This document shows positions 9,225 to 46,747 of a stretch of DNA of 64,000 nucleotides, piece by piece. The notes under the pieces were generated by a model, which did not search any database, was not told the DNA's origin, and saw only the letters and a program-made list of their open reading frames with translations. The stretch is from an uncultured Chloroflexia bacterium. GTDB lineage: Bacteria; Chloroflexota; Limnocylindria; QHBO01. Location: the NCBI GenBank assembly GCA_963816215.1, contig CAWFKB010000007.1:89202-153201 (forward strand). The letters are read 5' to 3'. A program made the translations under genes and the position numbers. Position 1 is the stretch's first letter. The number at the start of each line of letters is the position of its first letter.

Positions 9225-9276
9225 AGGGTCGGTGAGGATACACCCGGTCTTCCAGCCCCCCAAACCGGCCGTAGGG

Positions 9277-9717: not shown

Positions 9718-9743
9718 GACCCGGGCCTGGACGCGGAGCCCGC

Positions 9744-10349: not shown

Positions 10350-10358
10350 ATACCGATG

Positions 10359-11129: not shown

Positions 11130-11187
11130 CAGGCGCCGGACGGTACCCGATCGGCCCCGGCCCCGCAGCGATGTGTACGATCGGCGC

Positions 11188-13536: not shown

Positions 13537-13559
13537 GGAGGACCCGCCCGGGAGGGCCG

Positions 13560-15284: not shown

Positions 15285-15345
15285 GTCGGTCCGAGTCTAG
15301 GCGCCCGCTTGACGGGCGCCATCGGTCCGGCCACCCTTCGCGCCG

Positions 15346-30967: not shown

Positions 30968-32584
30968 ATGTCGCAGATGTCCAGCAAGGACGATGTGCTG
31001 GCGCAGGATCGCAGCGACCTGCACGGCCTCGGCTACGCCCAGGAGCTCCTTCGGTCCATGGGCGGATTCAGCAACTTCGCGATCAGCTTCTCAATCATTT
31101 CCATCCTGACCGGCGCGGTCATCCTCTACAACTACGGCCTCAATCTGGCCGGTCCGGCCGCGGTCGGCATCGGCTGGCCGCTTGTCACGTTCTTCACGCT
31201 GATGATCGCCGCCACCATGGCCGAGCTCGCATCGGCATACCCCACCGCCGGCGGTCTCTACTACTGGGCCAGCAAGCTCCGCAACAAGGACTGGGGCTGG
31301 TGGACGGCGTGGCTGAACCTGGGTGGCCAGGTCTCGATCGTGGCCGGCATCAACTACTCGGCGGCGTTCTTCCTGACAGCCACGATCATCAACCCCCTGC
31401 TCGGCGGGACGTTTGATCCCGCCGCCGATACACTCGGCGTCCAGAACGCCATCTGGATGACCGGCGTCCTCATCGCGATCGAAGTCGTATTCAACGTAGC
31501 CGGAACCCGGATCGTGGCGTTCATGAACGACCTGTCCGTGTGGTGGCACATCTTCTTCGTGGCCGCCATCGCCATCGCCCTGGTGACCATTGGCACGCAG
31601 CCGACCAATGACATCGACTTCCTGTTCACCGTCGCGCCGGCCGGAACGGCGGCGGATGGTACGCCGTGGGAACAGATCATCCCCTTCGGCATTGCGGGTG
31701 CGTTCGCCCTGAGCCTGCTGCAGGCGCAGTGGACATACACCGGGTACGACGCATCGGCCCACGTCGCCGAGGAGACCGTCTTCGCTCGGCGGGCTTCGGC
31801 CTGGGGCGTGTTCCTCTCGGTGGCCGTCTCCGCCATCGCGGGCTACGTCGTCCTCATGGCCCTGAACCTGAAGATGCCTCCGCCGGCTGACGTCATGGCC
31901 AACAGCGGCGGCTTGGGCATCAAGTACATCCTCGAGCAGAACCTGGGCGCGGGCCTCAACAACCTCGGCGGCCTCCTCGCGGCTGGCGTGGCGATCGCGA
32001 TGACGTTCTGCGGCTTCTCGTCGATCGCCTCGGCCGGGCGCATGCTGTTCGCCTTCAGCCGGGACGACGGTGTTCCCGGGAGTCGTTGGCTGAAGAATGT
32101 CAGCCACCGCTTCCGGACCCCGGCCAATTCGGTGATCGCGATCAGCCTCTTCTCGTGGTTGCTGATCATGCTGGTCTACCTGATCTTCACGCTGGCCGGC
32201 GCCGATCCGCTGTTCCTCATCGCCGGAATCGTCGGCGTGAGCACGGTGCTGCTCTACTGGGCCTACGGGCTCTGCATCCTGCTCGGCCTCATCGGCGATC
32301 AGTCATGGCGCGAGCGCCAGACCTGGAGCCTGGGCCGATGGAGCAAGCCGCTGGCCTGGATCTCGGTGATCTGGATCATCCTCATCACCCCGTTGTTCCT
32401 CTATCCGTTCGAGTTGAATGCAGCCTCCCTGGCGACCGTTGCCGGCTTCCTCGTGCTGCTGCTCGTCTACTACTTCGTATGGGCGCGGAGCCGGTTCAAG
32501 GGCCCGATCCCGCAGGGAACGGCCGAAGAGCTGGAAGCCATCGAACGCGAGTTCGAAGATGCGGCGACCGCTATCTCGACCTGA
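30968..32584 (+). CDS. APC-family amino acid/amine permease
   Basis: About 12-TM permease with APC-type segments. ATG at 30968. Confidence 0.8.
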   Translation: MSQMSSKDDVLAQDRSDLHGLGYAQELLRSMGGFSNFAISFSIISILTGAVILYNYGLNLAGPAAVGIGWPLVTFFTLMIAATMAELASAYPTAGGLYYWASKLRNKDWGWWTAWLNLGGQVSIVAGINYSAAFFLTATIINPLLGGTFDPAADTLGVQNAIWMTGVLIAIEVVFNVAGTRIVAFMNDLSVWWHIFFVAAIAIALVTIGTQPTNDIDFLFTVAPAGTAADGTPWEQIIPFGIAGAFALSLLQAQWTYTGYDASAHVAEETVFARRASAWGVFLSVAVSAIAGYVVLMALNLKMPPPADVMANSGGLGIKYILEQNLGAGLNNLGGLLAAGVAIAMTFCGFSSIASAGRMLFAFSRDDGVPGSRWLKNVSHRFRTPANSVIAISLFSWLLIMLVYLIFTLAGADPLFLIAGIVGVSTVLLYWAYGLCILLGLIGDQSWRERQTWSLGRWSKPLAWISVIWIILITPLFLYPFELNAASLATVAGFLVLLLVYYFVWARSRFKGPIPQGTAEELEAIEREFEDAATAIST

Positions 32585-32682
32585 GATCCATGCGACCCTG
32601 AACCAAGGACGGGCCGGCCGGGACAACCGGCCGGCCCGTCTCACCCGAGCGACCTGACACCGTGCCCGACGAGGACTTCGCG

Positions 32683-34062
32683 ATGACGACCACCAAGGAC
32701 CACCCCAGCAAAGCCGTCCTGACCCAGGCCATCCACGACGGGCAGATCGACACCCTGATCGTGGCCCTGACCGACATGCAGGGCCGCCTCATGGGCAAGC
32801 GGGTCCAGGGCCAGGCGTTCCTGAACGGCGCCATCGACCACGGCGCCCACTTCTGCACGTACCTCCTCGGCACGGACATGGAGATGAACACGCCCGATGG
32901 CTTCCAGCTCATGAACTGGGAGACGGGGTACGGCGACTGGATCGCCGATCCGCTATGGGACACCTACCGGGTGGTGCCGTGGCTGGAGAAGACGGCCATC
33001 GTCCTTTCCGACACGGTGGACCACCACGGGCACGAGATTGCCGTCTCGCCACGGACCATGCTCAAGCGCGTCGTCGAGAAGGCGACCGAGATGGGATTCC
33101 GGGCCATGGCCGGTTCGGAGTACGAGTACTACCTGCTGGCCGATACCTACGAGCAGGCCTGGGAGAAGGGCTACGTCGGGCTCAAGCGGTTCGGCTACTA
33201 CAACGAGGACTACCACCTCCTGCAGGCCACCAAGGGCGAGCCGATCCACGGCAAGCTGCGCAACCTCATGACCGAGGCCGGGATCCCGGTCGAGTTCAGC
33301 AAGGGCGAGGCGGCGCCCGGCCAGCACGAGGTCAACATCCACTACACCGACGTGCTGGAGATGGCCGACTGGTCGGTCCTCTTCAAGCACGGGGCCAAGG
33401 AGATCGCCTGGCTGAACGGGATGGGCCTGACCTTCATGGCCAAGCCCGATCACACCTGGACCGGCTCCAGCGGCCACCTGCACATGTCCCTGTGGGACAA
33501 GACCGGCAAGAAGGCGCTCTTCTACGACCCCAAGGCCGAGCCGTACGGCATGTCGAAGACCATGCGCCACTTCCTGGGCGGGATGATGAAGTACTCGCGC
33601 GAGCTCTCGATCTTCTGGGCCTGGAACGTGAACTCGTACAAGCGCTACGCCGTGGCGTCGTGGGCGCCGGTGAACGTGGTGTGGGGGCGGGACAACCGCA
33701 CCACCGGGTTCCGGATCGTGGGCGACGAGTCGGGGCTCCACGTCGAGAACCGCTTCCCCGGCGGCGACATGAACCCGTACCTGGCGTACGCCGCGGTGAT
33801 CGGGGCCGGGCTGCTGGGGATCGAGCGCGAGATCGAGCCGCCGGACGAATACGTGGGAAACGGGTACGTGGCCACCGGCTGCGACCGCATGCCGCGCGCG
33901 CTGCACGAGGCCATCCGCGAGCTCGAGGCCAGCGAGGCGGCAGCCGACATCTTCGGTCCCAACGTCGTGGCCCACTACCTCAACGCGGCGCGCGTGGAGC
34001 AGGAGACCTACGACGCGATCGTCCATCCGTGGGACCGCGAGCGCTACCTGGAACGGGGCTAA
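32683..34062 (+). CDS. Glutamine synthetase-like gamma-glutamyl-amine ligase (PuuA/GlnA3/GlnA4-type)
   Basis: GS catalytic-domain motifs (HYTDVLEMADW, GSSGHLHMSLW, NRFPGGDMNPYLA). I prefer the ATG at 32683 (AGGA 8 nt upstream) over the GTG at 32662. Confidence 0.8.
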   Translation: MTTTKDHPSKAVLTQAIHDGQIDTLIVALTDMQGRLMGKRVQGQAFLNGAIDHGAHFCTYLLGTDMEMNTPDGFQLMNWETGYGDWIADPLWDTYRVVPWLEKTAIVLSDTVDHHGHEIAVSPRTMLKRVVEKATEMGFRAMAGSEYEYYLLADTYEQAWEKGYVGLKRFGYYNEDYHLLQATKGEPIHGKLRNLMTEAGIPVEFSKGEAAPGQHEVNIHYTDVLEMADWSVLFKHGAKEIAWLNGMGLTFMAKPDHTWTGSSGHLHMSLWDKTGKKALFYDPKAEPYGMSKTMRHFLGGMMKYSRELSIFWAWNVNSYKRYAVASWAPVNVVWGRDNRTTGFRIVGDESGLHVENRFPGGDMNPYLAYAAVIGAGLLGIEREIEPPDEYVGNGYVATGCDRMPRALHEAIRELEASEAAADIFGPNVVAHYLNAARVEQETYDAIVHPWDRERYLERG

Positions 34063-34065
34063 CCG

Positions 34066-34833
34066 ATGCGATTGAGCGACAAGGTCGCCGTCATCACCGG
34101 CGCCGGAAGCGGGATGGGCCGCACGGCGGCCCTGATGTTCGCGGCCGAGGGCGCCAAGGTGGTGGTGGCCGAGTACGACGAGGCGGCCGGCGCCGAAACC
34201 CGCGACCAGGTGATGGCCGCGGGCGGGGACGCCGTGTTCGTGAAGACCGATGTCTCGTCAGAGACCGATGCGGCCGCCATGGTGGCGGCCGCCATGGATC
34301 GGTATGGGCGGCTGGACGTCCTCTACAACAATGCCGGGATCATGCCCGAGGCCGATCACTCGGTGACCGACACCGACGTCGAGACCTGGGACCAGGTGAT
34401 GGCCATCAACGTCCGTGGCGTGTTCCTGGGCTGCAAGTACGCGATCCCGCGCATGCTGGAGCAGGGGTCCGGATCGGTCATCAACATCAGCTCGTTCGTC
34501 GCCCTGCTCGGCTGCTCGGTCCCGCAGGACGCGTACACCGCCTCGAAGGGCGCCGTGCTGTCGCTGACCCGGTCATTGGCCGTCCAGTTCGGTCCCCAGG
34601 GAGTGCGCTCCAACGCCATCTGCCCCGGCCCCATCGAGACGCCGCTCCTCATGGACTGGCTGCTGAAGGACGAGGCGGCCAAGAACCTGCGCCTCGCCCG
34701 CAACCCCACCGGCCGGTTCGGCAAGCCCGAGGAGATCGTGAACGTGGCTGTCTACCTGGCCTCGGACGAGTCACGCTGGACGAACGGCGCCCATTTCGTC
34801 ATCGACGGCGGAATCAGCGTCAACTACTTCTAG
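34066..34833 (+). CDS. Short-chain dehydrogenase/reductase
   Basis: TGAGSGMG cofactor motif, NNAG, catalytic YTASK. Confidence 0.85.
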   Translation: MRLSDKVAVITGAGSGMGRTAALMFAAEGAKVVVAEYDEAAGAETRDQVMAAGGDAVFVKTDVSSETDAAAMVAAAMDRYGRLDVLYNNAGIMPEADHSVTDTDVETWDQVMAINVRGVFLGCKYAIPRMLEQGSGSVINISSFVALLGCSVPQDAYTASKGAVLSLTRSLAVQFGPQGVRSNAICPGPIETPLLMDWLLKDEAAKNLRLARNPTGRFGKPEEIVNVAVYLASDESRWTNGAHFVIDGGISVNYF

Positions 34834-34882
34834 GGCCGGGCAACAGGTCGCTCGCCTGACCGGGGATATACTCGGGCCCCTG

Positions 34883-36373
34883 ATGACGACCGAAACGACC
34901 GCCGCCGCTGACCTTGCCCCGAGCGTGGGCGCGATGCAGATGATCATTGGTGGCGAGCACGTGGACGCCGCTGACGGGCAAACGTTCGAGGTCATCAACC
35001 CGGCCACCGGAGCGGTACTGGCGACGGCCCCCATGGGCGGCCCCGAGGACGTCAACCGGGCGGTCGCCGCGGCCCAGAAGGCCCTGGACGACCCGAAGGG
35101 CTTCTCGTCCTGGTCAGCAGCCAAGCGCGGCCGCGCCCTCCAGAAGCTGAGCAACCTGGTCAAGGATCACCTGGAGGAGCTGGCTCAGCTCGAGAGCCGC
35201 AACGTGGGCAAGCCCATCTCCGGCGCCCGCGGCGAGGCCTTGGGGGTCAGCCTCGTGTTCGAGTACTACGCCGGCGCGGCCAACAAGCATTTTGGCCAGA
35301 CCATCCCAACCAGCAAGCCGGGGCTCGACTTCACGCTGCGCGAGCCCATCGGCGTGGTGGGCCTGATCGTGCCCTGGAACTTCCCGATGAACATGGCGTC
35401 CTGGAAGCTGGGGCCTGCCCTGGCCACCGGCAACGCCTGCATCCTCAAGCCGGCCTCCTACACGCCGCTCACCGCGCTGCGACTCGGGGAGCTGGCGCTG
35501 GAAGCCGGGTTCCCGCCGGGCATCGTGAACGTGGTCACCGGTCCGGGCGGCACCGCGGGTGCGGCCATCGCCGCCCATCCAGGGGTTGGCAAGGTGGCCT
35601 TCACCGGCGAGACGACGACCGGCCAGGAGATCCTGCGCCTGGCGGCGGGGAACGTGAAGAAGGTGAGCCTCGAGCTGGGCGGAAAGAGCCCGAACATCGT
35701 GTTCGCCGACGCCGACCTGGACCGATTCGCCCGCGAGTCGCCCTACGCGGTGTTCGACAACGCCGGCCAGGACTGCTGTGCGCGGAGCCGGATCTTCGTC
35801 GAGGCATCGGTTCACGACCAGGTCGTGGCCGCCTTCATCGAGGCCACGCGCAACGTCAAGGTCGGTGACCCCGCCGACGAGGGGACTGAGATGGGGAGCC
35901 TCGTCAGCCAGCGCCAGCGCGAGCGGGTGGCGGACTACATCCAGGTCGGCCGGGACGAGGGAGCGGAGCTGGCGTATGGCGGGGAGGCCCCGACCGGTGA
36001 TCCGTTCGACGACGGCGCATACCTGATGCCCACCATCTTCGACGGCTGCCGGACCGACATGCGGATCGTGCGCGAGGAGATCTTTGGTCCGGTGGTTGCC
36101 ATCATCCCGTTCGCGGACGAAGCGGAGGCCGTGCGCCTGGCCAACGACACGCCGTATGGGCTGTCGGGATCGGTCTGGAGCCGGGACATCGGCAAGGCGA
36201 TCCGGGTCGCCAAGGGCCTCAAGGCGGGCGTCCTGTCGGTGAACTCCAACAGCAGCGTGCACACCGAGGCGCCCTTCGGCGGCTACAAGATGAGCGGGAT
36301 CGGGCGCGAGCTGGGAATGGGGGCGCTCGACCTGTTCACCGAGGTCAAGAACGTCTTCGTCGACCTGACCTGA
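34883..36373 (+). CDS. NAD(P)-dependent aldehyde dehydrogenase
   Basis: 496 aa. ELGGKSP and the Cys context QDCCARSRIFVEAS. Full-length ALDH. Confidence 0.85.
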   Translation: MTTETTAAADLAPSVGAMQMIIGGEHVDAADGQTFEVINPATGAVLATAPMGGPEDVNRAVAAAQKALDDPKGFSSWSAAKRGRALQKLSNLVKDHLEELAQLESRNVGKPISGARGEALGVSLVFEYYAGAANKHFGQTIPTSKPGLDFTLREPIGVVGLIVPWNFPMNMASWKLGPALATGNACILKPASYTPLTALRLGELALEAGFPPGIVNVVTGPGGTAGAAIAAHPGVGKVAFTGETTTGQEILRLAAGNVKKVSLELGGKSPNIVFADADLDRFARESPYAVFDNAGQDCCARSRIFVEASVHDQVVAAFIEATRNVKVGDPADEGTEMGSLVSQRQRERVADYIQVGRDEGAELAYGGEAPTGDPFDDGAYLMPTIFDGCRTDMRIVREEIFGPVVAIIPFADEAEAVRLANDTPYGLSGSVWSRDIGKAIRVAKGLKAGVLSVNSNSSVHTEAPFGGYKMSGIGRELGMGALDLFTEVKNVFVDLT

Positions 36374-36374
36374 G

Positions 36375-37807
36375 TTGACTCCGCCTCCGTTCCAGCTCCC
36401 CGAGACCCGCCCCGCTCCCCTCACCATTCGCCGGTTCGCCGCGCTCGTGGCGGGCAAGGCGGCGGCCAGCGCCACCCGTCTCACCGGTCGAGGCGGCGGA
36501 ACCTCGCTGCCGGGGATGGTCGCCCGGCGGCTGGACCCCGGCATCCTGTCGGACCTGGTCGGGGACCGGGGGGTGCCGGTCCTGGCCATCACCGGGTCCA
36601 ATGGCAAGACCACGACCGCCCGGTTCACCGCTGCCCTCCTCCGGGCGGCCGGCCTCCCGGTTGCTCATAACCAGGCGGGCGCGAACCTCGTCCAGGGGGT
36701 GACCTCTCTGGCGGTAGCAACGGCCGATCTCCGGGGCCGTATGCCGCCAGTGGTGCTGGTGAGCGAGATCGACGAGGGCGCGCTCCCGCTGGTGGCGCCC
36801 GAGATCCGGCCCCGTGCCATCCTCGTGACGAACCTCTTCCGCGACCAGCTGGATCGGTACGGCGAGATCTATGCCGTGGCCGACCTCTTCGAGTCGGTCG
36901 CGGCTGGGCTGCCGGCGGACAGCGTGCTGGTCGTGAATGCCGATGATCCGATCGTGGCCGGGCTGGCGCCGGGTCGTCTCGGGACGCTGCGTCACGTTCG
37001 GCATGGACCTCGCCGAGTCGACGGACACCATCACCCGGGCCGCGGACACGATCCGCTGCCCGGTGTGTCGGGCGGACCTCGTCTACGACAAGGTCTACCT
37101 CTCGCACATGGGCGCGTGGCACTGCGATGCCTGCGGCCTGACCCGCCGCGAGCTGGACGTGGCGGTGACCGCGGTCGAGGTCCGCGGACTGGCCGAGACG
37201 CGCTTCACCGTCCGCACGCCGGATCGCGTCCTGGAGCTGACGGTCCCCCAGTCGGGCGTGCACGTCGCCTACGACGCGGCGGCGGCCATCGCCCTGGCCT
37301 ACGGCCTGGGCGTCGTCCCTGGATCACGCGGCAGAGGCGCTGGCGGCGGTCGGCCCTGCCTTCGGACGGCTGGAACGGATCACGGCCGGCGACCGCCAGA
37401 TCGTGCTGGGCTTTGCGAAGAACCCCACCTCGTACAACACGACCCTGCGCGCCCTCGCCACCGAGGGCCTGCCCGAGCAGCTGCTGATCGCGGCCAGCAA
37501 CACGCTCGTTGACGGCGAAGACTTCGGGTGGCTGTGGGACGTGGAGTTCGAGGGCGCGGTCCCACGGATCAAGGCCGCCACGGTCTCCGGCCTCCGCGCC
37601 GACGAGCTGGCCAACCGGCTGAAGTACGCGGGGCTGGACCCGGCGCGCATCACCGTGGTCGAGGACCGCGTCCCGGCCCTGGACCACGCCCTGGCCGGAC
37701 TCGAGCCCGGCGGCGTGCTCACCGTGCTGGCGGGCTACACCCCGACCATCGAGCTCCGCGAGGAGATGCGCCGTCGCGGCTGGGTTGGGCGATACTGGGC
37801 CGCATGA
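36375..37807 (+). CDS. murT: Lipid II isoglutaminyl synthase subunit MurT (Mur-ligase-like + DUF1727), with two apparent frameshifts
   Basis: TTG start 1 nt after the ALDH stop. AITGSNGKTTT P-loop, Cys4 zinc ribbon CPVCRADL...HCDACG, and C-terminal LGFAKNPTSYNTTLRAL. The gene is spread over three frames, with shifts near 36981 and 37318. Confidence 0.7.
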
Positions 37808-38606
37808 CCGAGTCCGGGTACCCCACCCTGCGCATCGCCCACCTCTACCCGTCGCTGCTTAACGTGGCCGGTGACGGAGGCAACGTGATGGCCCTCGTCC
37901 AGCGCTGCGCCTGGCGCGGCATCCCGACCGAGGTCGTCGACGTCGAGCAGGGGGACAAGCCCGACTTCACGACCTTTGACCTGATCCTGTTCCATGGCGG
38001 GCAGGACGTGGAGATGGAGGTCGTGGCGGCCGACCTGGGGCTCAAAGTGCCGTCCCTGCGGGAGGCCGCTGACCAGGGCGTCGTGATCTTCGCGGTGTGC
38101 GCAGGCCTTCAGTTGCTCGGCAACCGGTACACCCCGTCCGACGGCGAGGCCCTGGAGGGCGCGGCCATCCTCGACCTGGAAACCCACGGAGGACCGGAGC
38201 GCTTCATGCAGCACGCGGCGGTCGAGGTGACCCTCAACGGCGAGACGGGCACGGTCGTGGGGTTCGAGAACCATTCAGCGGCCAGACCATCCTCGGCCCC
38301 GGCGCCCAGCCCTTCGGGACCATGGTCGCCGGCGCCGGCAACAACGGCAGCGACGGGACCGAGGGCGCCGTGCGCGACCACGTGTACGCCACCTACCTCC
38401 ACGGACCGGTGCTGCCCAAGAACCCGTGGCTGGCCGACCAGCTCATCAAGATCGCCCTCGAGCGACGGATGGGCCACCCGGTGGAGCTCGCTCCCCTCGA
38501 CGACGAGGCGGAGACGCGCGCCCACGAGGTGACCCTGGCCAAGGCCCTTCGCAATCGCGGTCAGCGGACGGCGCTCACCCCGGCCGAACTGGTCCGCAAC
38601 CGGTAG
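37804..38606 (+). CDS. gatD: Lipid II isoglutaminyl synthase glutaminase subunit GatD (CobQ-type GATase), with one apparent frameshift
   Basis: ATG overlaps the murT stop (ATGA). VIFAVCAGLQLLG carries the Cys nucleophile. The C-terminal half (GAGNNGSDGTEGAV...HGPVLPKNPW) is in another frame from about 38280. Confidence 0.7.
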
Positions 38607-38756: not shown

Positions 38757-40385
38757 TTGACCGCGGATCAGACCCACGCCGAGCAGGTCGCCAAGGATGA
38801 CGCGCACCTCGAGTCGCTCGGCATCAAGCCCCAGCTGAGCCGGCGGCTCGGCTACTTCTCCAGCTTCGCAGTGGCGTTCAGCTACATCAGCGTCGCGACT
38901 GGTTCGTTCACCCAGCAAGCAGTCGCCATTGGAGTGGGCGGCCCGCCCTTCATCTGGGGCTGGTTCCTCGTCATCCTCGGTCAGACGTTCGTGGCCCTGA
39001 ACTTTGCCGAACTGTCGAGCCATTTCCCGGTGGCTGGATCGATTTATCAGTGGTCGAAACGACTTTCGAACAAGACCCTGGGCTGGTTCACCGGCTGGTT
39101 CTACTTCTGGGCCGGTGTCCTGACCGTGACCGCCGTCGCCGCCACCGTCCCGTACGTGATGTCGCCGCTGTTCGGAATCGACCTGTCCGCCGCGAGTCCG
39201 ATCCCGTTCCTCAATACGTGGTCGTTCCTGTCGATCATCGCGCTCCTGGTTTCGACGACCATCAACGCGTTCGGCGTGCGGCTCTTGACCTTCCTGAACA
39301 ACCTCGGTGTCGCCGCCGAGATCCTGGGCATGATCGTGTTCGCCCTGGTCCTGCTGATCTTCGCCAATCACCAGCCGATCTCGGTCATCTTTGACACGTC
39401 GTACACGGCCAACCTGGCTGGTGGGAACTACTTCGCCGTGTTCCTGGTGGGCATGTTCCTCGCCCTGTTCGTGGTCTATGGATTCGACACGGCCGGAACC
39501 TTTGGTGAGGAGACCGTCAACGCCAGCAAGCACGCCCCGCGCGGTGTCCTCGCGGCGATCTGGCTGTCTGGCATCGCCGGGTTCCTGTTCCTGCTCGGCG
39601 TGATTCTGTCCTTCAAGGACATCGGGGCCGCCGTCGCCGAAGGGCAGGCGTTTGGCTTTCCCTTCGCAACCACCATCAAAGAGAACCTGAACCAGGAGTT
39701 AGTCGGGGGAGTGACGCTCGGTGACGTCTATCTGGTGGTCATCCTGATCGCAGTCTCCGTCTGCACCCTGGCCATTCAGGGCGCGACGACCCGCCTGATG
39801 TTCTCGATGGGACGCGACGGCCGCCTGCCGTTCGGGAAGACCTGGGCCCACGTCAACAAGTCCTTCAAGACCCCAACCAATGCCGCGCTCGGAGTGGGCG
39901 TCCTCTCCGTGGTGCCCTTGCTCGTCACCGGCGCGCTGGCGGCGTTCTACCTCGCCATTGCGGCCACCGGAACGATCTACATCAGCTACTTCCTGTGCAA
40001 CTGGGGAGTCCTGCGCGCCCGACGACGCGGCTGGCCGCACAAGGCTGCCTGGTTCAAGCTCGGCAGTTGGGGAACGATCCTCAACTTCCTGGCCCTGGTG
40101 TGGGGCGGGCTGATGATCATCAACATCGGTATCTGGGAGAGCCCGATCTTCGGAGACTTCGGCAACGAACTCCGGAGCATCTGGTCCAACCCGCCGATCA
40201 ACACCTTCCTCCAATGGAACGGTGAGACGCTGTCCGACCTTCCCGCAATCCCGGTGTTCGAGTTCTTCGTCGGCTCGGTCCTGACCATCGGCGTGCTGTA
40301 CTACGTTCTGAGCGGTCAGCGCCGCAAGGAGGACGTCGTCCAACTCGAGGCGGATACCGCCACCGGCGAGACGATGATCGCGTAA
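38757..40385 (+). CDS. APC-family amino acid/amine (choline/ethanolamine-type) permease
   Basis: 542 aa, about 12 TM. TTG start with AAGGAGA 6 nt upstream. Confidence 0.8.
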   Translation: MTADQTHAEQVAKDDAHLESLGIKPQLSRRLGYFSSFAVAFSYISVATGSFTQQAVAIGVGGPPFIWGWFLVILGQTFVALNFAELSSHFPVAGSIYQWSKRLSNKTLGWFTGWFYFWAGVLTVTAVAATVPYVMSPLFGIDLSAASPIPFLNTWSFLSIIALLVSTTINAFGVRLLTFLNNLGVAAEILGMIVFALVLLIFANHQPISVIFDTSYTANLAGGNYFAVFLVGMFLALFVVYGFDTAGTFGEETVNASKHAPRGVLAAIWLSGIAGFLFLLGVILSFKDIGAAVAEGQAFGFPFATTIKENLNQELVGGVTLGDVYLVVILIAVSVCTLAIQGATTRLMFSMGRDGRLPFGKTWAHVNKSFKTPTNAALGVGVLSVVPLLVTGALAAFYLAIAATGTIYISYFLCNWGVLRARRRGWPHKAAWFKLGSWGTILNFLALVWGGLMIINIGIWESPIFGDFGNELRSIWSNPPINTFLQWNGETLSDLPAIPVFEFFVGSVLTIGVLYYVLSGQRRKEDVVQLEADTATGETMIA

Positions 40386-40406
40386 GTTCCCGTTGCGCCC
40401 GCCCAG

Positions 40407-40443
40407 GCGAGCGGCTCGGCGCCCCGGCGCTCGAGCCGCTCGC
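40407..40443 (+). repeat. Strong GC-rich inverted repeat/hairpin between the permease and kinase genes
   Basis: GCGAGCGGCTCG GCGCC CC GGCGC TCGAGCCGCTCGC: arms of about 17 bp with a single bulge. Confidence 0.5.
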
Positions 40444-40475
40444 GCATTTCCGCACGAGATTCGAGGGCCGCTGGA

Positions 40476-41444
40476 TTGACCGATCCCCCCTTTCCCCCGC
40501 CCGATGACGAACCGCTCCACGGCGAGCTGGCGGAGCACCTGTCTGACGCCCTCCAGCGCGTCCCGGAGACGGCCGGGCGCGACCTCACTTTCACCCCGCT
40601 CTCGGGCGGGATCACGAACCGGAACTTCCTGATCACCGTCGCCGGCGAGGCGGATCGGTACGTCATCCGCCTGGCAGGCAACGACACCTTCCTGCTGGGC
40701 ATCAGCCGCGAGGTGGAGCACGCCGCCACCGTGGCCGCCGCCGGCGTGGGGGTGGGCCCCGAGGTGGTCGCCTTCATCAAGCCCGAGGGCTACCTCGTCA
40801 CCCGCTTCATCATCGGTCAGCCGGTCAGCGACGACGCCGTGCGCGATCCCGCCACCCTGGCCCGGGTGGCCGACTCCATCCGCCGGGTCCACGGCGGGCC
40901 GGCCATCCCCGGCCTGTTCGTTCCGTTGCGGATCTGCGACGCGTACCACGCCCTCGCATCGGCCCGCGGCGTCCCGGACCCGGCCGGCTGGGACGCGGCG
41001 CTGGCCGCGGGACGGCGGATCGAGCGCGCCCTGCTGGATGCGCCGCTCCCCCTGGCGCCGTGCCACAACGACCTGCTCAACGCGAACTTCATCGACGACG
41101 GCGAGCGGATCCGGATCGTGGACTGGGAGTACGCCGGCATGGGCGACCTGTTCTTCGACCTGGGCAACTTCAGCATCAACCACGAGCTGAGCCCCGAGCA
41201 GGACGTCACCTTCCTGTGTGCCTACGACCAGACCGATGCGCCTGACCCCGCGCGCCTCGCGCGGCTGACGCTCATGCGCGTGGTGTCCGACTTCCGCGAG
41301 GCAATGTGGGGCGTCCTCCAGCAGGCGATCAGCACCCTGGACGTGGACTTCGTGGAATACGCCGACGAGCACTTCGACCGGCTGCTGCGCCATGCCGCGG
41401 AGCCGCGCTTCGAGGACGCCCTGCGCGAGGTCGCCGGTGGCTGA
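40476..41444 (+). CDS. Choline/ethanolamine kinase-family phosphotransferase (LicA-like)
   Basis: TPLSGGITNRNFLI (Brenner-type) and HNDLLNANFIDDGERIRIVDWEYAGMGDLFFDLGNF. TTG start with GAGGG 9 nt upstream. Confidence 0.75.
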   Translation: MTDPPFPPPDDEPLHGELAEHLSDALQRVPETAGRDLTFTPLSGGITNRNFLITVAGEADRYVIRLAGNDTFLLGISREVEHAATVAAAGVGVGPEVVAFIKPEGYLVTRFIIGQPVSDDAVRDPATLARVADSIRRVHGGPAIPGLFVPLRICDAYHALASARGVPDPAGWDAALAAGRRIERALLDAPLPLAPCHNDLLNANFIDDGERIRIVDWEYAGMGDLFFDLGNFSINHELSPEQDVTFLCAYDQTDAPDPARLARLTLMRVVSDFREAMWGVLQQAISTLDVDFVEYADEHFDRLLRHAAEPRFEDALREVAGG

Positions 41445-43864
41445 CGCCGCGCGCGTCGTGATCATCGGCGGGGGCGTGGGCGGAACAGCCATCGCCTATC
41501 ACCTCGCCCGACTGGGCTGGACCGAGGTCGTGCTCCTCGAACGATCGGAACTGACCAGCGGATCCACGTTCCACTCCGCGGGTCTGGTGGGCCAGCTCCG
41601 CGCCAGCCCGACCTTGACCCGGATGATGGTCGACTCAGTGGATACCTACCGCCAGCTCCAGGCCGAGACCGGCGTGGATCCCGGCTGGCGCGAGGTTGGA
41701 TCGCTCCGCCTGGCCTCCAGCGCCGAACGGATGGAGGAGCTGCGCCGCCAGGCCGGCTGGGCCAAGGCCTATGGGCTCGAGATGGCGCTCGTCTCCGCCG
41801 ACGAGGCGCAGGCCCGCTTCCCGCTCATGTCAACCGCGGGCGTGCTCGGCGCGGCCTGGCTCCCCACCGACGGCTACCTCGACCCCTCGGGTCTGACCCA
41901 GGCCCTCGCCGCGGGCGCCCGCCAGCGCGGAGTGGACATTCGGACCCGGACCCGGGTCACCGCCATCACGGTCGTGAACGGGCGCGTGACCGGGGTGGAG
42001 ACCGATGCCGGACCGATCCAGGCCGAATTCGTCGTCAACGCGGCGGGCATGTTCGCGCCGGAGGTCGGCCGCCTGGCCGGAGTCGCCGTCCCGATCATCC
42101 CGTTCGCGCACCAGTACCTCGTGACCGAGCCCATCGACGGCGTGACCCCGGATCTGCCCGCAGCTGCGTGACCCCGATCATCTGGTCTACTTCCGGCCCG
42201 AGGTCGGCGGCCTGGTGATGGGCGGCTACGAGCGCGATCCGGCCGCGTGGGGACTGGACGGCATCGCCCCCGACTTCAACGGCAAGCTCCTGCCGCCCGA
42301 CTGGCCGCGCTTCGAGGAGATCAGCCGCGGCGCGGTCCTCCGGGTGCCTGCCATGGCCACCGCCGGCGTGCGGCAGCTGATCAACGGCCCGGAGGGCTTC
42401 ACTCCCGACAACGAGTTCATCCTGGGCGAGACCGAGGTGCGCGGCTTCTGGGTCGCCGCCGGCTTCTCGGCCCACGGGATCGCCGGCGCGGGCGGGATGG
42501 GCCGCCAGGTCGCGCACTGGATCGTGGACGGCGAGCCGGAGTACGACCTGTGGAAGATGGACATCCGCCGGTTCGGGGCGCAGTACCGGTCACGAACCGT
42601 CGTCCAGGCGCGGGCCACCGAGAACTACGCGACCTACTACGACATCCACTACCCCAACGAGGAACGGCAGTCCGCCCGGGCGCTGCGCCTCTCCCCAACG
42701 TACGGGCGCCTGGCCGAGCTGGGCTGCGCGTTCGGCGAGAAGTCCGGCTGGGAGCGACCGAACTGGTTCGACAGCAATGCCCCGCCGGGCGACCCGGCGC
42801 TCCGCCCGCGCGGATGGGCGGGCCACCACTGGTCACCGGCCATCGAGGCCGAGGCCCTGGCCACCCGCACGACCGCCGCCCTGTTCGACGAGACGAGCTT
42901 CTCGAAGATCGAGATCAGCGGGTCGGGCGCGCTCGCCTTCCTGCAGCGCCTGTGCGCCAACGACATGGACCGACCCATCGGTCGAATCACGTACACCCAG
43001 ATGCTCAACCGCCGGGGCGGGATCGAGTGCGACTTCACCGTCACCCGCCTCGCGGCGGATCGGTTCTTCATCGTCACCGGCACCGCGTTCGGGAATCACG
43101 ACCTGGGCTGGATCCGGTCGCATGCCCCCGACGACGGCAGCGTGACCCTGACCGATGTGACCTCGGCCCGGGCGTGCCTCGGCATCTGGGGTCCGCGCGC
43201 GCGCGACATCGTGGCCTCGACCAGCACCGATGACTGGTCGAACGACGCATTCCCCTACCTGAGCGCCCGCCAGGTGAGCGTCGGCCCGGTTCCCGTCCTG
43301 GCGCTGCGGGTCACGTATGTCGGGGAGCTGGGCTGGGAGCTCTACGCCCCCATGGAATACGGCCTCGTCCTGTGGGACACGCTGTGGGCCGCCGGGAAAC
43401 CGCACGGCATGGTGGCCGGCGGCTACCGGGCGATCGAGGCACTGCGTCTGGAGAAGGGTTACCGGGTGTGGTCGAGCGACATCACGCCCGACGACTCCCC
43501 GGACCAGGCGGGTTTGGGGTTCGCGGTCCGGATGGGCAAGGCCGAGCTGTTCATCGGCCGCGACGCGCTCGAAGCCGCCCGGGCGGGCGGGGTGGATCGG
43601 CGCCTGTGCTGCCTGGTCCTCGACGAGCCGCTGGCCGTGGCGCTGGGCAACGAGCCGATCCGGATCGGGCAGCAGGTCGTGGGACGCGTGACGTCCGGTG
43701 GCTACGGGTACACGGTCGGGGCCAGCATCGCCTACGGCTACCTCCCCGCGGCGCAGGCCGACGTGAATCAGCGGGTCGAGGTCGAGATCTTCGGGGAGTG
43801 GGTAGGCGGAACGGTGAGCGCCGAGCCGTTGTTCGACCCCAGCGGGGAGCGGATCCGGGCCTGA
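41437..43864 (+). CDS. Dimethylglycine/sarcosine dehydrogenase-family FAD oxidoreductase fused to a GcvT-like aminomethyltransferase domain, with one apparent frameshift
   Basis: GTG overlaps the kinase stop. N-terminal FAD motif VVIIGGGVGGTAIAYHL and a DAO domain. HQYLVTEPIDGV, then a stop in this frame, while LRDPDHLVYFRPEVGGLVMGGYE continues in the next frame from about 42158. C-terminal GcvT-like folate-binding domain. Confidence 0.7.
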
Positions 43865-43865: not shown

Positions 43866-44618
43866 CTACTGCGCGGCGGCGCGGCGGATGGCCGCGTGGG
43901 CCCGGGCCGCCTCGACGAACGAGGCCCACAGCCGCTCGAACTCGGGGGAGGTGAACTCCGTCCGCTCGGGATGGCTCTGGATGCCCATCACCCAGCGGCT
44001 CGGGTTCGCGTCCTCGAGCGCCTCCACCAGGTCGCCTTCCGGATGCGCGCTATAGCCGCTGACGGTGAGCCCGGTCCCCACCTGGTCCGGACGGACGGCC
44101 TGGTGGTGGTACGTGTTCACCGAGGCGATCGACTCGCCCAGCACCTCGGCCAGTCGCGTTCCGGCCTCGATCTCCATGTCATGGGCCTTGGCCTCGGGCG
44201 CAGGGTACGCCGGGCTGGTGTGGCCCTCGATGTCCTGCACGAGCGCGCCGCCACGGAACACGTTGATGGCCTGCATCCCGCGGCACACGCCAAAGATCGG
44301 GACGTCCTGCGCTTCGGCGGCGGCGAAGGCCGCCTGCTCAAGGGCGTCGCGGCCGGGTTCCACCACGGTCGTGGGATGGGGCTCCTCTCCGTACAGGGCA
44401 GGGGCCAGGTCCGCGCCACCGGACAGCAGCAGGCCGTCCATCGTGTCAAAGGCGGCCTCGCGCTCGGCGGCGCTGCTGTCCTCGTTGAGCGCGATCACGT
44501 CGCCACCGTGTCGCGCCACGGCCTCGAAGTAGCGGTCGTTCTTCTGCCAGGCCACTTCCTCGTTCGCCGCGTGCTCGGGCGACTGGACGGTGACCACGAT
44601 CCGCGGCGGACGATCCAT
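43866..44618 (-). CDS. Gamma-glutamyl-GABA hydrolase-family protein (PuuD-like, class I GATase/peptidase C26)
   Basis: GVCRGMQ nucleophile elbow and a His context near the C-terminus. 250 aa. Confidence 0.75.
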   Translation of the reverse strand: MDRPPRIVVTVQSPEHAANEEVAWQKNDRYFEAVARHGGDVIALNEDSSAAEREAAFDTMDGLLLSGGADLAPALYGEEPHPTTVVEPGRDALEQAAFAAAEAQDVPIFGVCRGMQAINVFRGGALVQDIEGHTSPAYPAPEAKAHDMEIEAGTRLAEVLGESIASVNTYHHQAVRPDQVGTGLTVSGYSAHPEGDLVEALEDANPSRWVMGIQSHPERTEFTSPEFERLWASFVEAARAHAAIRRAAAQ

Positions 44619-44698: not shown

Positions 44699-45688
44699 AT
44701 GACCGATTCGCGTCGTCTTCGACTTCCCGTGGTCCTGCTCGTCGTTGGCCTGCTGGCCATCGCGACCGCCTGTCAGCCGCCGAGCGCCTCCGCGTGCGGG
44801 CTGGTCGACTACGCGACGACCATCCAGACCGATCTCGACACCCTGACGGCACTGGACGCCACCCAGGTCGCGACGGCCGGGACACCCGACAACGTCACCG
44901 CGCTGGCCACCCTGGACACGCTCGACGCCACGGTGGTCGAAGCCCAGGCGGCCCTCGACGCGGCATCGGACGACGAGGTCAACACCGTGACGCGGACCTC
45001 CTTCCAGGCCGTGCTGGACGCAACCTCGGCCGCAACGTCATCGATGCGGACGGCCATCGAATCCGGAGACGCGGGTCAGGTCAGTTCGGCCATAACCGGT
45101 CTCCAGGTTGCTTCGGCGGCCATCGGCGCGTTCACCGGCCTGGTGAACGGGCTCGGGGAGGACTGCCCGACCGCCTCACCGAGCGAGTCGACAGCCGCGA
45201 GCGCCTCCGCGGAGGCAACGCTCGAACCGACCCTGGCCCCGACCGTCGCACCCACCGCCACCCCCGTCCCACCCACGGACACCCCTGCGCCGACGGCAAC
45301 CCCAGCGGAAACCGAGTCCGAGACGGAGGCTGAAGCCACCCCGACCGCCACGCCTGCGCCGACCGCGACACCTACCCCAACGCCCACCCCCACGCCAACG
45401 CCGAGCCCGTCCCCCACTCTGAGCCCGACTATCGAGCCGAGCCCTTCTGCCTCCGAGCCACCTACGCCGGATGACGAGGGCAGCGGGCTACTGCCGTGGA
45501 TCCTGGTCCTGGGTGTCGGTGGCCTGGGTGCCGCCATCGTCGTCCTGTGGTACGCCAACCGCAACGACGAGGGCGAGCCGCCCGACGAGTTCGGGACGCC
45601 GCCCGACGAGTTCGGTGGACCGGACCAGGGGACCTCCGCACCGCCGCCTGTCGGTGGTGCGCCGCCACCGACCGCGCCGCAGTCCTAG
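44699..45688 (+). CDS. Lipoprotein with Pro/Thr-rich spacer and C-terminal TM anchor
   Basis: LAIATAC lipobox, long TPTPAPTATP low-complexity region, C-terminal hydrophobic helix, PPDEFG repeats. Confidence 0.55.
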   Translation: MTDSRRLRLPVVLLVVGLLAIATACQPPSASACGLVDYATTIQTDLDTLTALDATQVATAGTPDNVTALATLDTLDATVVEAQAALDAASDDEVNTVTRTSFQAVLDATSAATSSMRTAIESGDAGQVSSAITGLQVASAAIGAFTGLVNGLGEDCPTASPSESTAASASAEATLEPTLAPTVAPTATPVPPTDTPAPTATPAETESETEAEATPTATPAPTATPTPTPTPTPTPSPSPTLSPTIEPSPSASEPPTPDDEGSGLLPWILVLGVGGLGAAIVVLWYANRNDEGEPPDEFGTPPDEFGGPDQGTSAPPPVGGAPPPTAPQS

Positions 45689-46745: not shown

Positions 46746-46747
46746 GG

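What the first reader, a model, noticed from the sequence alone, without database searches (positions are those of the whole stretch)
30968..36373. Gamma-glutamylation-type amine/aminoalcohol catabolic cluster: permease, GS-like ligase, SDR, ALDH, with a PuuD-like hydrolase at 43866-44618
The gene set resembles the Puu-like gamma-glutamylation route used for putrescine, ethanolamine (GlnA4-type) and isopropylamine catabolism. The amine would be glutamylated, the alcohol oxidised by the SDR and ALDH, and glutamate released by a class I GATase-like hydrolase. The SDR-plus-ALDH combination favours an aminoalcohol substrate. The hydrolase is encoded 7.5 kb away, next to another amine operon.
Basis: partly seen in the sequence, partly recalled or inferred. 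Interest (0 to 1): 0.5.

Follow-up and report, generated by a model that had tools for sequence, protein, structure and literature searches.

The report
Ethanolamine gamma-glutamylation operon in Chloroflexota
This is an ordinary but previously undescribed Chloroflexota copy of a known bacterial pathway that most likely breaks down ethanolamine by first attaching it to glutamate, and the distant hydrolase gene does belong to it.

Summary
The genes are an APC permease (30968-32584), a GS-like ligase (32662/32683-34062), an SDR (34066-34833), an ALDH (34883-36373) and a Peptidase_C26 hydrolase (43866-44618, minus strand).

The window comes from a soil Chloroflexota ('Ca. Limnocylindria') MAG. 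The GS-like protein keeps all metal, ATP and glutamate ligands. It lacks the Glu327 flap, Asn264 and Tyr179, and it fails every curated GS and PuuA model.

Its nearest relative in a cultured organism (Thermomicrobium roseum, 64% identity) sits in a GS-SDR-eat (ethanolamine permease) operon. Homologues at 42-48% identity lie in the proteobacterial ethanolamine operon type or in the Streptomyces/Arthrobacter GS-C26-ALDH-SDR type.

The permease-GS-SDR-ALDH core is conserved in nearly all of 80 related loci. The C26 gene directly abuts the ALDH, GatD or DMGDH-like gene in relatives, and a closed genome has the window's exact order.

Best reading: ethanolamine is converted to gamma-glutamylethanolamide, then the aldehyde, then gamma-glutamylglycine, then glycine plus glutamate. 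The substrate is inferred, not shown. This is a new member of a known kind, of low to moderate interest. A co-travelling permease, choline-kinase-like and DMGDH-like module remains unexplained.

The parts
30968..32584 (+). APC-superfamily permease (perm1), the presumed amino-alcohol (ethanolamine) importer
   Evidence: AA_permease_2 6.6e-43. The best NCBIfam model is TIGR00907 (amino acid/choline transporter subfamily), 222 bits and below cut-off. The permease of the S. viridifaciens GS-C26-ALDH-SDR cluster has the same best model. Perm1 is 35% identical to that permease and 38% to the Allomeiothermus cluster permease. It lies directly upstream of GS in 31/31 and 32/38 related loci.
32662..34062 (+). 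GS-like gamma-glutamyl-amine (probably gamma-glutamylethanolamide) synthetase; the alternative start is ATG 32683
   Evidence: Gln-synt_C 3.9e-96. Metal, ATP and glutamate ligands are conserved, while Glu327 is Trp, Asn264 is Thr and Tyr179 is deleted. Identity is 64% to the T. roseum GS in a GS-SDR-eat operon, 42-44% to 5dm3, 11zs and the P. denitrificans and Arthrobacter cluster enzymes, 29% to PuuA and 26% to GlnA.
34066..34833 (+). Short-chain dehydrogenase, the presumed gamma-glutamyl-amino-alcohol dehydrogenase
   Evidence: adh_short_C2 1.3e-68. It has the TGAGSGMG, NNAG and YTASK motifs. Its best NCBIfam model is NF004713 (285 bits, cut-off 404). The SDRs of the Arthrobacter and Streptomyces GS-C26-ALDH-SDR clusters pass that same model at 496 and 507 bits. 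Identity is 54% to the T. roseum cluster SDR. There is a 3-nt gap after GS.
34883..36373 (+). NAD(P)-dependent aldehyde dehydrogenase, the presumed gamma-glutamyl-aminoaldehyde dehydrogenase
   Evidence: Aldedh 1.4e-170. The catalytic Cys and Glu are present. Identity is 49% to the Arthrobacter cluster ALDH and 42% to PuuC. It passes no curated equivalog.
43866..44618 (-). Peptidase C26 / class-I GATase-like gamma-glutamyl-amide hydrolase, the presumed gamma-glutamylglycine hydrolase
   Evidence: Peptidase_C26 1.4e-45. The Cys-His-Glu triad aligns with that of PuuD. Identity is 38% to the Arthrobacter cluster C26, 32% to PuuD, 55% to the C26 abutting ALDH in L001 and 82% to the C26 in the same position in closed genome L097. 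No formylglutamate amidohydrolase was found among the window ORFs scanned.
36516..38606 (+). MurT-like and GatD-like pair inserted between ALDH and the second module; probably not part of the pathway. It is frameshifted in the window.
   Evidence: Mur_ligase_M, MurT_C and GATase_3 matches. Against the intact L097 orthologues (429 and 263 aa) the window shows two frameshifts in MurT (about 36995 and 37316) and one in GatD (about 38270). The pair is present in only 7 of 17 clade-A loci.
38757..43864 (+). Co-travelling module of unknown role: APC permease (38757-40385), choline/ethanolamine-kinase-family kinase (40476-41444) and a DAO-FAO_M-GCV_T dimethylglycine-dehydrogenase-like flavoprotein (41437-43864, one frameshift near 42157)
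   Evidence: Pfam matches. PDB best hits are 3dxq for the kinase and DMG oxidase/dehydrogenase for the flavoprotein (1.9e-168, queried with the L002 orthologue). The flavoprotein is intact at 807-808 aa in L002 and L097. The module follows the core cluster in 9-12 of 17 clade-A loci. The kinase/DMGDH-like pair is also adjacent in Nonomuraea.

Best explanation
This is a catabolic operon for a small primary amino alcohol, most likely ethanolamine. It works by the known gamma-glutamylation route.

Proposed steps:
1. The APC permease imports the amine.
2. The GS-like ligase uses ATP to join it to the gamma-carboxyl of glutamate, giving gamma-glutamylethanolamide.
3. The SDR oxidises the free hydroxyl to the aldehyde.
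4. The ALDH oxidises the aldehyde to gamma-glutamylglycine.
5. The C26 hydrolase, encoded 7.5 kb downstream on the other strand, releases glycine and regenerates glutamate.

What is shown here: gene presence, intact catalytic residues, loss of the ammonium-site residues, conservation of the gene set, and physical association of the C26 gene with the cluster across rearrangements.

What is inferred: the substrate (ethanolamine), the order of the steps, and the C26 substrate (gamma-glutamylglycine).
For: - The GS-like protein has a conserved catalytic core but lacks ammonium-site residues. It is below the cut-off for the GSI, type III and PuuA models.
- The closest homologue in a cultured organism, on the T. 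roseum megaplasmid (64%), lies in a GS-SDR-eat operon. Its permease passes the TIGR00908 ethanolamine-permease equivalog, 436 vs 382.
- All six 42-48%-identical homologues whose contexts I examined in cultured bacteria sit with an alcohol dehydrogenase, mostly also an ALDH, and in five of six a gamma-glutamyl hydrolase. P. denitrificans, P. pantotrophus and Microbulbifer have RpiR-FGase-(TRAP)-GS-ALDH-FeADH, although no ALDH is listed in the Microbulbifer gene table, which has an unlisted gap at that position. This is the operon type induced by phosphatidylethanolamine in Phaeobacter and reported as demonstrated in C. salexigens and A. tumefaciens. Arthrobacter and S. viridifaciens have GS-C26-ALDH-SDR. 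Allomeiothermus has permease-GS-SDR-ALDH with no hydrolase.
- The published Streptomyces cluster lists SDR, ALDH, glnA4, permease and glutamine amidotransferase, and GlnA4 was specific for ethanolamine in vitro (PMC6529630).
- In the tree, the Chloroflexota clade has 100% support and joins the proteobacterial ethanolamine clade at 70%. PuuA, GlnA and the Ipu type fall outside.
- The C26 gene abuts ALDH, GatD or the DMGDH-like gene in relatives. It is present in arrangements that lack the second module (L001, L008, L028) and absent in one that has it (L002).
- SDR plus ALDH, with no amine oxidase or transaminase in the operon, fits a substrate whose distal group is a primary alcohol.
Against: - No biochemical data exist for any Chloroflexota member.
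- The ligase is only 42-44% identical to the ethanolamine-type enzymes. Enzymes with other contexts (an Ipu-type P450 cluster and a transaminase-type cluster) are at 37-38%, so identity alone does not fix the substrate.
- The deep tree nodes have only 57-70% support.
- Perm1 is not an Eat-type (TIGR00908) ethanolamine permease.
- In the 69-78% clade no C26 gene lies within 10 kb (0/29), so the hydrolase is not universally linked.
- S. coelicolor GlnA4, M. tuberculosis GlnA4 and GlnA2/3 themselves could not be included in the tree.
- That 5dm3 is C. salexigens Csal_0679 rests on my memory and was not verified.
Confidence: 0.72

Rival explanations
1. The chemistry is the same (gamma-glutamylation, then alcohol to aldehyde to acid, then hydrolysis), but the substrate is a different primary amino alcohol. 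Candidates include 3-aminopropanol (giving beta-alanine), 4-aminobutanol (giving GABA) and alaninol (giving alanine).
For: The ligase is only 42-44% identical to ethanolamine-type enzymes. Perm1 belongs to the amino acid/choline transporter subfamily rather than the Eat family. No enzyme passes a curated equivalog. The family clearly contains other specificities at similar distances.
Against: The nearest relative in a cultured organism is operon-linked to a bona fide Eat ethanolamine permease. All six homologue contexts examined at 42% identity or more are of ethanolamine-pathway type. Ethanolamine is by far the most abundant such compound in soil, as a phospholipid headgroup (established knowledge).
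Confidence: 0.15
2. The gene set from perm1 to C26 is one integrated route for N-methylated ethanolamines or choline. The second permease, the choline-kinase-like kinase and the THF-dependent DMGDH-like demethylase would convert methylated headgroups to ethanolamine (or a phospho-derivative), which the gamma-glutamylation enzymes then finish.
For: The permease2-kinase-DMGDH-like module follows the core cluster in 9-12 of 17 clade-A loci through several rearrangements. The kinase and DMGDH-like genes overlap by 8 nt in both the window and L097. The pair is also adjacent in Nonomuraea, a different phylum. A choline-kinase-family gene also lies near the Arthrobacter GS-C26-ALDH-SDR cluster. Both permeases have their best or second-best match to the amino acid/choline transporter subfamily.
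Against: The module is absent from clade B and from L001, L008 and L028. In Nonomuraea no GS-like gene lies within about 9 kb of the pair. No phosphatase is present in the window cluster. The DMGDH-like protein's best matches are ordinary dimethylglycine oxidase/dehydrogenase, so it may simply degrade dimethylglycine or sarcosine. The co-occurrence could be inherited synteny within one lineage.
Confidence: 0.08
3. This is a Puu-type polyamine (putrescine or cadaverine) gamma-glutamylation pathway.
For: It has a GS-like ligase, an ALDH and a C26 hydrolase, as in PuuA, PuuC and PuuD. A DAO-domain flavoprotein, the family to which PuuB belongs, lies nearby.
Against: Scores against the curated Puu models are far below cut-off: PuuA 185 vs 650, PuuC 424 vs 850, PuuD 68.6 vs 266. 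The operon has an SDR where a polyamine route needs an oxidase or transaminase. The nearby flavoprotein carries FAO_M and GCV_T domains typical of N-demethylases and is absent from many relatives. PuuA falls outside the clade.
Confidence: 0.04
4. This is a genuine glutamine synthetase for ammonium assimilation that happens to sit beside unrelated dehydrogenases.
For: It has the Gln-synt_C domain with a complete metal, ATP and glutamate site.
Against: The Glu327 flap, Asn264 and Tyr179 are lost. It is below the GSI cut-off, at 228 vs 429. It is 26% identical to E. coli GlnA. The co-linearity with permease, SDR and ALDH is conserved across about 80 loci.
Confidence: 0.01

Closest known systems
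Streptomyces ethanolamine utilisation cluster with GlnA4 (SCO1610-SCO1615; Krysenko et al. 2019, PMC6529630), and the equivalent GS-C26-ALDH-SDR clusters of Arthrobacter sp. U41 and S. viridifaciens pKVP1
   Same: The parts list is the same: APC permease, GS-like ligase lacking the ammonium site, SDR, ALDH and a class-I GATase/C26 hydrolase. The window's ALDH (49%), C26 (38%) and SDR (46%) match the Arthrobacter cluster proteins better than they match E. coli PuuC (42%) and PuuD (32%); E. coli has no SDR counterpart. The best SDR model is the same, NF004713.
   Different: The phylum differs (Chloroflexota). The gene order differs (permease-GS-SDR-ALDH, with the hydrolase detached and convergent). 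No GntR/FCD-type regulator is adjacent. The ligase is about 43-44% identical and in the tree sits nearer the proteobacterial clade than the actinobacterial one (70% support). The SDR is below the NF004713 cut-off.
Proteobacterial ethanolamine pathway (C. salexigens Csal_0678-type operon of Vetting et al. 2015; Phaeobacter MED193_10026-10056, PMC10132767; P. denitrificans, P. pantotrophus and Microbulbifer plasmid operons)
   Same: The chemistry is the same: ethanolamine gamma-glutamylase, gamma-glutamylethanolamide dehydrogenase, aldehyde dehydrogenase and gamma-glutamylglycine amidohydrolase, yielding glycine plus glutamate. The ligases are 42-48% identical. They form the clade with which the Chloroflexota enzymes group.
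   Different: The transporter is a TRAP system rather than an APC permease. The alcohol dehydrogenase is iron-containing rather than an SDR. The hydrolase is an N-formylglutamate amidohydrolase rather than a C26 protein. An RpiR regulator is present.
Thermomicrobium roseum megaplasmid operon TRD_RS11145-11135 (GS family protein, SDR, eat)
   Same: It is the closest homologue from a cultured organism: ligase 64% and SDR 54% identical, with the same GS-SDR order and from the same phylum-level lineage. It has 100% support as sister to the Limnocylindria clade.
   Different: It uses an Eat-family ethanolamine permease downstream, rather than an amino acid/choline transporter-type permease upstream. 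No ALDH or hydrolase lies within 9 kb. It is uncharacterised experimentally.
E. coli Puu putrescine pathway (PuuP, PuuA, PuuB, PuuC, PuuD)
   Same: The overall logic is the same: gamma-glutamylate the amine, oxidise the distal end to a carboxylate, then hydrolyse with a C26 enzyme.
   Different: Identities are 29%, 42% and 32% to PuuA, PuuC and PuuD, and all are far below the curated cut-offs. An SDR stands in place of the PuuB oxidase. The substrate carries a hydroxyl rather than a second amine.

Membership tests
GlnA4/Eto-type ethanolamine gamma-glutamylation pathway | A GS-fold ligase that keeps the metal, ATP and glutamate ligands but lacks the ammonium-site residues (Glu327 flap, Tyr179, Asp50/Ser53 environment) | tested here: met
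   E129, E131, E212, E220, G265, H269, H271, R321, R339, R344, E357 and R359 are conserved. E327 is W (F in 5dm3 and 11zs; F331 in the GlnA4 model, PMC6529630). N264 is T, Y179 is deleted and S53 is Q. The D50 column is unreliable.
GlnA4/Eto-type ethanolamine gamma-glutamylation pathway | The ligase groups phylogenetically with ethanolamine-context enzymes rather than with PuuA, GS or other gamma-glutamyl-amine synthetases | tested here: inconclusive
   support is 100% with the T. roseum (eat-linked) enzyme. The Chloroflexota clade joins the proteobacterial ethanolamine clade at 70%. The split {GlnA, PuuA, Ipu type, lone Streptomyces GS} versus the rest has 69%. This is an NJ tree of 18 sequences, and SCO1613, Rv2860c and GlnA2/3 were not available.
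GlnA4/Eto-type ethanolamine gamma-glutamylation pathway | A co-encoded alcohol dehydrogenase and aldehyde dehydrogenase to convert the gamma-glutamyl amino alcohol to the gamma-glutamyl amino acid | tested here: met
   The SDR and ALDH lie immediately downstream (gaps of 3 and 49 nt) with intact catalytic motifs. They are conserved in 27/27 and 17/17 loci of clade A and 27/29 and 25/29 loci of clade B.
GlnA4/Eto-type ethanolamine gamma-glutamylation pathway | A gamma-glutamyl-amide hydrolase (C26/GATase type in actinomycetes, FGase type in proteobacteria) genetically linked to the ligase | tested here: met
   A C26 gene with an intact triad lies at 43866-44618. It is adjacent to the cluster in L001, L008, L009, L010, L013, L015, L017, L023, L027, L028, L032, L034, L035 and L097. 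It is not linked in clade B (0/29).
GlnA4/Eto-type ethanolamine gamma-glutamylation pathway | A dedicated ethanolamine transporter | tested here: inconclusive
   Perm1 is an APC permease whose best model, TIGR00907, is also the best model for the Streptomyces cluster permease. It is only 35% identical to that permease and does not match the Eat family, TIGR00908.
GlnA4/Eto-type ethanolamine gamma-glutamylation pathway | ATP-dependent formation of gamma-glutamylethanolamide, and ethanolamine-dependent growth or induction | not testable with these tools
   This needs enzyme assays or culture. The organism is an uncultured MAG lineage.
E. coli-type Puu putrescine pathway | Orthologues of PuuA, PuuC and PuuD that pass the curated equivalog models | tested here: not met
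   GGputSyn 185 vs 650, PuuC 424 vs 850, PuuD 68.6 vs 266.
E. coli-type Puu putrescine pathway | A gamma-glutamylputrescine oxidase (PuuB) or transaminase acting on a distal amino group | tested here: not met
   The operon has no such gene. The only nearby DAO-domain protein is an 808-aa DAO-FAO_M-GCV_T protein of DMGDH type, and it is absent from many relatives.
True glutamine synthetase (GSI) | Passes the GSI model and keeps Glu327, Asn264, Tyr179 and Asp50/Ser53 | tested here: not met
   TIGR00653 scores 228 vs 429. Three of these residues are lost.
Ipu isopropylamine pathway | A GS-like IpuC with a P450 monooxygenase and ferredoxin/reductase genes | tested here: not met
   No P450 or ferredoxin was found in the window cluster. 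The Ipu-type example (Agrobacterium leguminum p2) is 37% identical and falls outside the clade.

The most novel reading that the evidence does not exclude
The conserved set from perm1 to C26 (excluding the MurT-GatD insertion) would be a single headgroup-recycling system. An uncharacterised choline-kinase-like kinase and a THF-dependent DMGDH-like demethylase form a pair that is also adjacent in the actinomycete Nonomuraea. Together they would strip methyl groups from choline or N-methylethanolamines (possibly as phospho-esters) and feed ethanolamine into the gamma-glutamylation enzymes. That would be a new oxidative route from choline to glycine that bypasses glycine betaine.
Probability: 0.08. 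Interest if true: 0.6.

Novelty: new member of a known kind. Interest (0 to 1): 0.25.

Why it matters
If the assignment is right, it extends the gamma-glutamylation route of ethanolamine catabolism to Chloroflexota. Until now this route has been studied in Streptomyces, C. salexigens, A. tumefaciens and Phaeobacter. The lineage here is 'Ca. Limnocylindria', known here only from metagenome-assembled genomes, many of them from soil, and nearly all of the 80 related loci examined carry the core cluster.

This suggests that these organisms harvest nitrogen and carbon from phospholipid headgroups without a eut microcompartment. It also gives a practical cultivation hint: try ethanolamine as the nitrogen source.

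The cluster shows that the pathway's parts are interchangeable. The ligase is nearest the proteobacterial type, while the SDR, ALDH and C26 hydrolase are of the actinobacterial type.

The unexplained kinase/DMGDH-like module is a small, testable lead.

Tried and rejected
- A homology search with the kinase returned only close Limnocylindria relatives (at least 74% identity), so it gave no wider context. The plasmid collection gave a single distant hit, in Nonomuraea, whose neighbourhood added nothing beyond the DMGDH-like partner.
- The promoter and terminator scan of 29.5-46 kb found no more sites than shuffled controls, so operon boundaries rest on gene spacing only.
- Rfam found only two tRNAs and no riboswitch.
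- I looked for a formylglutamate amidohydrolase among the window ORFs called by third-codon-position GC and found none.
- The 1-nt ALDH-to-MurT gap that I first took as a sign of coupling was an artefact of the longest ORF. The orthologue-based MurT start is about 36516, which gives a gap of about 142 nt.
- Biopython's clade-based bootstrap supports were misleading for deep nodes. I replaced them with bipartition supports.
- I could not identify the organism or function of PDB 11zs. I could not verify from the held literature that 5dm3 is Csal_0679, and Vetting et al. 2015 is not held.
- The conserved 470-aa membrane ORF in relatives had no Pfam, NCBIfam or PDB match. Its resemblance to the alkaline-phosphatase superfamily is only a motif-level impression.

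Full report
**Observation.** The window is about 70% G+C, so I called genes by third-position GC and confirmed them with Pfam.

| Gene | Coordinates | Pfam match |
|---|---|---|
| APC permease | 30968-32584 | AA_permease_2, 6.6e-43 |
| GS-like protein | 32662-34062 | Gln-synt_C, 3.9e-96 |
| SDR | 34066-34833 | 1.3e-68 |
| ALDH | 34883-36373 | 1.4e-170 |
| Hydrolase | 43866-44618, minus strand | Peptidase_C26, 1.4e-45 |

- The closed-genome orthologue suggests that the GS starts at ATG 32683.
- Gene spacing is operon-like: 77, 3 and 49 nt.

**Source.** The closest homologues of the GS-like protein (85-91% identity) come from 'Candidatus Limnocylindria' and other Chloroflexota MAGs. A genome scan returned 80 loci, almost all from this lineage. 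They include a 10.5-kb contig 99.3% identical to the window and a closed 2.09-Mb chromosome.

**The ligase is not a glutamine synthetase.**
- I aligned it with E. coli GlnA and PuuA and the two best PDB matches.
- It keeps every metal, ATP and glutamate ligand: E129, E131, E212, E220, G265, H269, H271, R321, R339, R344, E357 and R359.
- It has Trp in place of the Glu327 flap residue, Thr in place of Asn264 and Gln in place of Ser53, and the Tyr179 segment is deleted.
- This is the pattern described for GlnA4 and PauA7 (PMC6529630).
- It scores below the curated cut-offs of GSI (228 vs 429), 'type III' (247 vs 470) and PuuA (185 vs 650).
- The C26 protein keeps the Cys-His-Glu triad. The SDR and ALDH keep their catalytic motifs.

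**Comparative genomics.** I mapped the window's proteins onto the 80 loci.

| Feature | Clade A (GS at least 82% identical) | Clade B (GS 69-78% identical) |
|---|---|---|
| Permease directly upstream | 31/31 | 32/38 |
| SDR downstream | 27/27 | 27/29 |
| ALDH downstream | 17/17 | 25/29 |
| C26 within 10 kb | 10/17 | 0/29 |

- Within the window's own clade, the C26 gene lies convergently against the end of the cluster in three positions.
  - After ALDH: L001 and about ten others.
  - After GatD: L008 and L028.
  - After the DMGDH-like gene: the window and L097.
- It is present where the second module is absent (L001, L008, L028). It is absent in one arrangement that has the second module (L002).
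- The closed chromosome L097 has exactly the window's order, with all genes intact.
- The hydrolase therefore tracks the gamma-glutamylation cluster and not the neighbouring operon.
- In clade B no C26 gene lies within 10 kb.
- No formylglutamate amidohydrolase was found among the window ORFs scanned.

**Anchors in cultured organisms and the literature.** A protein search of annotated plasmids and chromids gave 68 records.

| Organism | Ligase identity | Context |
|---|---|---|
| Thermomicrobium roseum | 64% | GS-SDR-eat; the permease passes the ethanolamine-permease equivalog |
| P. denitrificans, P. pantotrophus, Microbulbifer | 44-48% | RpiR-FGase-(TRAP)-GS-ALDH-FeADH (no ALDH listed in the Microbulbifer gene table) |
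| Arthrobacter sp. U41, S. viridifaciens | 43-44% | (permease)-GS-C26-ALDH-SDR |
| Agrobacterium leguminum | 37% | Ipu-type P450 cluster |
| Paenarthrobacter sp. YJN-5 | 38% | ALDH-transaminase cluster |

- The proteobacterial operon type is induced by phosphatidylethanolamine in Phaeobacter. It is cited as demonstrated in C. salexigens and A. tumefaciens (PMC10132767).
- In P. pantotrophus the operon is followed by the glycine/glyoxylate-assimilating bhcBCD genes.
- The Arthrobacter and Streptomyces gene set is the one published for the Streptomyces ethanolamine cluster, whose GlnA4 is ethanolamine-specific in vitro (PMC6529630).
- The window's ALDH and C26 are more similar to the Arthrobacter cluster proteins than to E. 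coli PuuC and PuuD.
- The window's SDR shares its best NCBIfam model (NF004713) with the actinobacterial cluster SDRs.

**Phylogeny.** I built an NJ tree of 18 context-anchored sequences (454 columns, 500 bootstraps scored as bipartitions).
- The Chloroflexota clade, including T. roseum, has 100% support.
- The proteobacterial ethanolamine clade, including PDB 5dm3 and 11zs, has 99%.
- These two groups, together with the Allomeiothermus sequence, join against the actinobacterial, Ipu, PuuA and GlnA sequences at 70%.
- The split {GlnA, PuuA, Ipu type, one lone Streptomyces GS} against the rest has 69%.
- The deep support is moderate, and the reference GlnA2/3/4 sequences were not obtainable.

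**Mechanism.** The best-supported reading has five steps:
1. The permease imports ethanolamine.
2. The ligase makes gamma-glutamylethanolamide.
3. The SDR makes the aldehyde.
4. The ALDH makes gamma-glutamylglycine.
5. The C26 hydrolase yields glycine plus glutamate.

Gene content, active-site state and linkage are shown here. The substrate and the order of steps are inferred from homologous systems. An SDR plus an ALDH, with no oxidase or transaminase, argues for a distal primary alcohol and against polyamines. Other short amino alcohols cannot be excluded.

**Surroundings.**
- A MurT/GatD-like pair lies between ALDH and C26 in the window. It is present in only 7 of 17 clade-A loci. In the window it carries three frameshifts relative to L097.
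- Next comes a second APC permease, a choline/ethanolamine-kinase-family kinase and an 808-aa DAO-FAO_M-GCV_T protein with one frameshift. The L002 orthologue of this protein is closest to dimethylglycine oxidase/dehydrogenase.
- The kinase and DMGDH-like genes overlap by 8 nt. They are also neighbours in Nonomuraea at 33% and 61% identity, so they form a module of unknown function conserved across phyla.
- Whether this module feeds the gamma-glutamylation enzymes, for example by demethylating choline-type headgroups, is speculation. I give it about 8%.
- The frameshifts may be long-read assembly errors.

**Verdict.** The system is a new (Chloroflexota) member of a known kind. It combines a ligase nearest the proteobacterial type with actinobacterial-type SDR, ALDH and C26 partners. 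Interest is low to moderate (0.25).

Noticed in passing
window 10930-13536 (+): An 868-aa fusion of an APH-type phosphotransferase domain (residues 122-356) and a class-III aminotransferase-fold domain (468-861). From my own knowledge, this is the architecture of amino-alcohol kinase plus phospho-lyase enzymes (ethanolamine-phosphate or 5-phosphohydroxylysine phospho-lyase type). It may be a second amino-alcohol route in the same organism. The best NCBIfam model is only 'hypothetical protein' PRK06148, at 712 bits against a cut-off of 1128.
   Followed up: partly
window 45756-48085 (-): A phosphoribulokinase gene lies next to a RuBisCO large-subunit gene, and I saw no small-subunit gene. The large subunit passes the general model (565 vs 438). 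It is just under the type III equivalog (494.4 vs 497.45).
   Followed up: partly
window about 36995, 37316, 38270 and 42157: There are four frameshifts relative to the intact orthologues in closed genome L097: two in MurT-like, one in GatD-like and one in the DMGDH-like gene. The five pathway genes, permease2 and the kinase are intact. Many related assemblies are long-read MAGs, and contig L006 differs from the window by 8 gaps in 10.5 kb, so these may be indel errors rather than pseudogenes.
   Followed up: partly
L091 (Nonomuraea gerenzanensis NZ_LT559118.1) 6587-9924; window 40476-43864: The choline-kinase-like gene and the DMGDH-like gene are adjacent (divergent) in an actinomycete, at 33% and 61% identity to the Limnocylindria proteins. 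The pair is thus conserved across phyla and has no assigned function.
   Followed up: partly
L013:12996-14396, L015:12140-13573, L009:13490-14944, L018:6694-8094: A conserved ORF of about 470 aa (63-78% identity among copies) sits between SDR and ALDH in relatives but is absent from the window. It has about four N-terminal transmembrane helices and 'LLDGYPR ... FSDHG' motifs reminiscent of the alkaline-phosphatase/sulfatase superfamily. It has no Pfam, NCBIfam or PDB match.
   Followed up: partly
L097 18065-18730 (-): A PEMT-family (phospholipid N-methyltransferase) gene lies about 4 kb beyond the C26 gene in the closed Limnocylindria chromosome. This hints that these bacteria may make N-methylated ethanolamine lipids. 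It was not found among the window ORFs scanned.
   Followed up: no
L088 (Arthrobacter sp. U41 plasmid) 463-7797: Next to the GS-C26-ALDH-SDR cluster lie a choline kinase family gene (27% identical to the window kinase), an inositol-monophosphatase-family gene, an amidase, a GntR regulator and a sodium:solute symporter. This is a second case of a choline-kinase-like gene near this kind of cluster.
   Followed up: partly
L092 (P. pantotrophus plasmid) 7109-15089: The FGase-GS-ALDH-FeADH ethanolamine-type operon is immediately followed by bhcBCD (beta-hydroxyaspartate cycle). This fits glycine as the pathway product being assimilated with glyoxylate.
   Followed up: no
window 8319-9368 (-) and 13560-15296 (-): A Ku protein and an ATP-dependent DNA ligase (a non-homologous end-joining pair) flank the kinase/aminotransferase fusion.
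   Followed up: no
window 44699-45688 (+): A 329-aa Pro/Thr/Ala-rich protein with a lipoprotein-like signal (…LLAIATAC) and a C-terminal hydrophobic anchor lies divergent from the C26 gene. It matches no protein family and is unlikely to be an enzyme.
   Followed up: partly
L006 and L007 (both from MAG MFD02242.bin.2.244): The same MAG holds two versions of this region. One is a 10.5-kb contig 99.3% identical to the window. The other, on a 383-kb contig, is about 89-91% identical at the nucleotide level. This suggests two related strains binned together.
   Followed up: no
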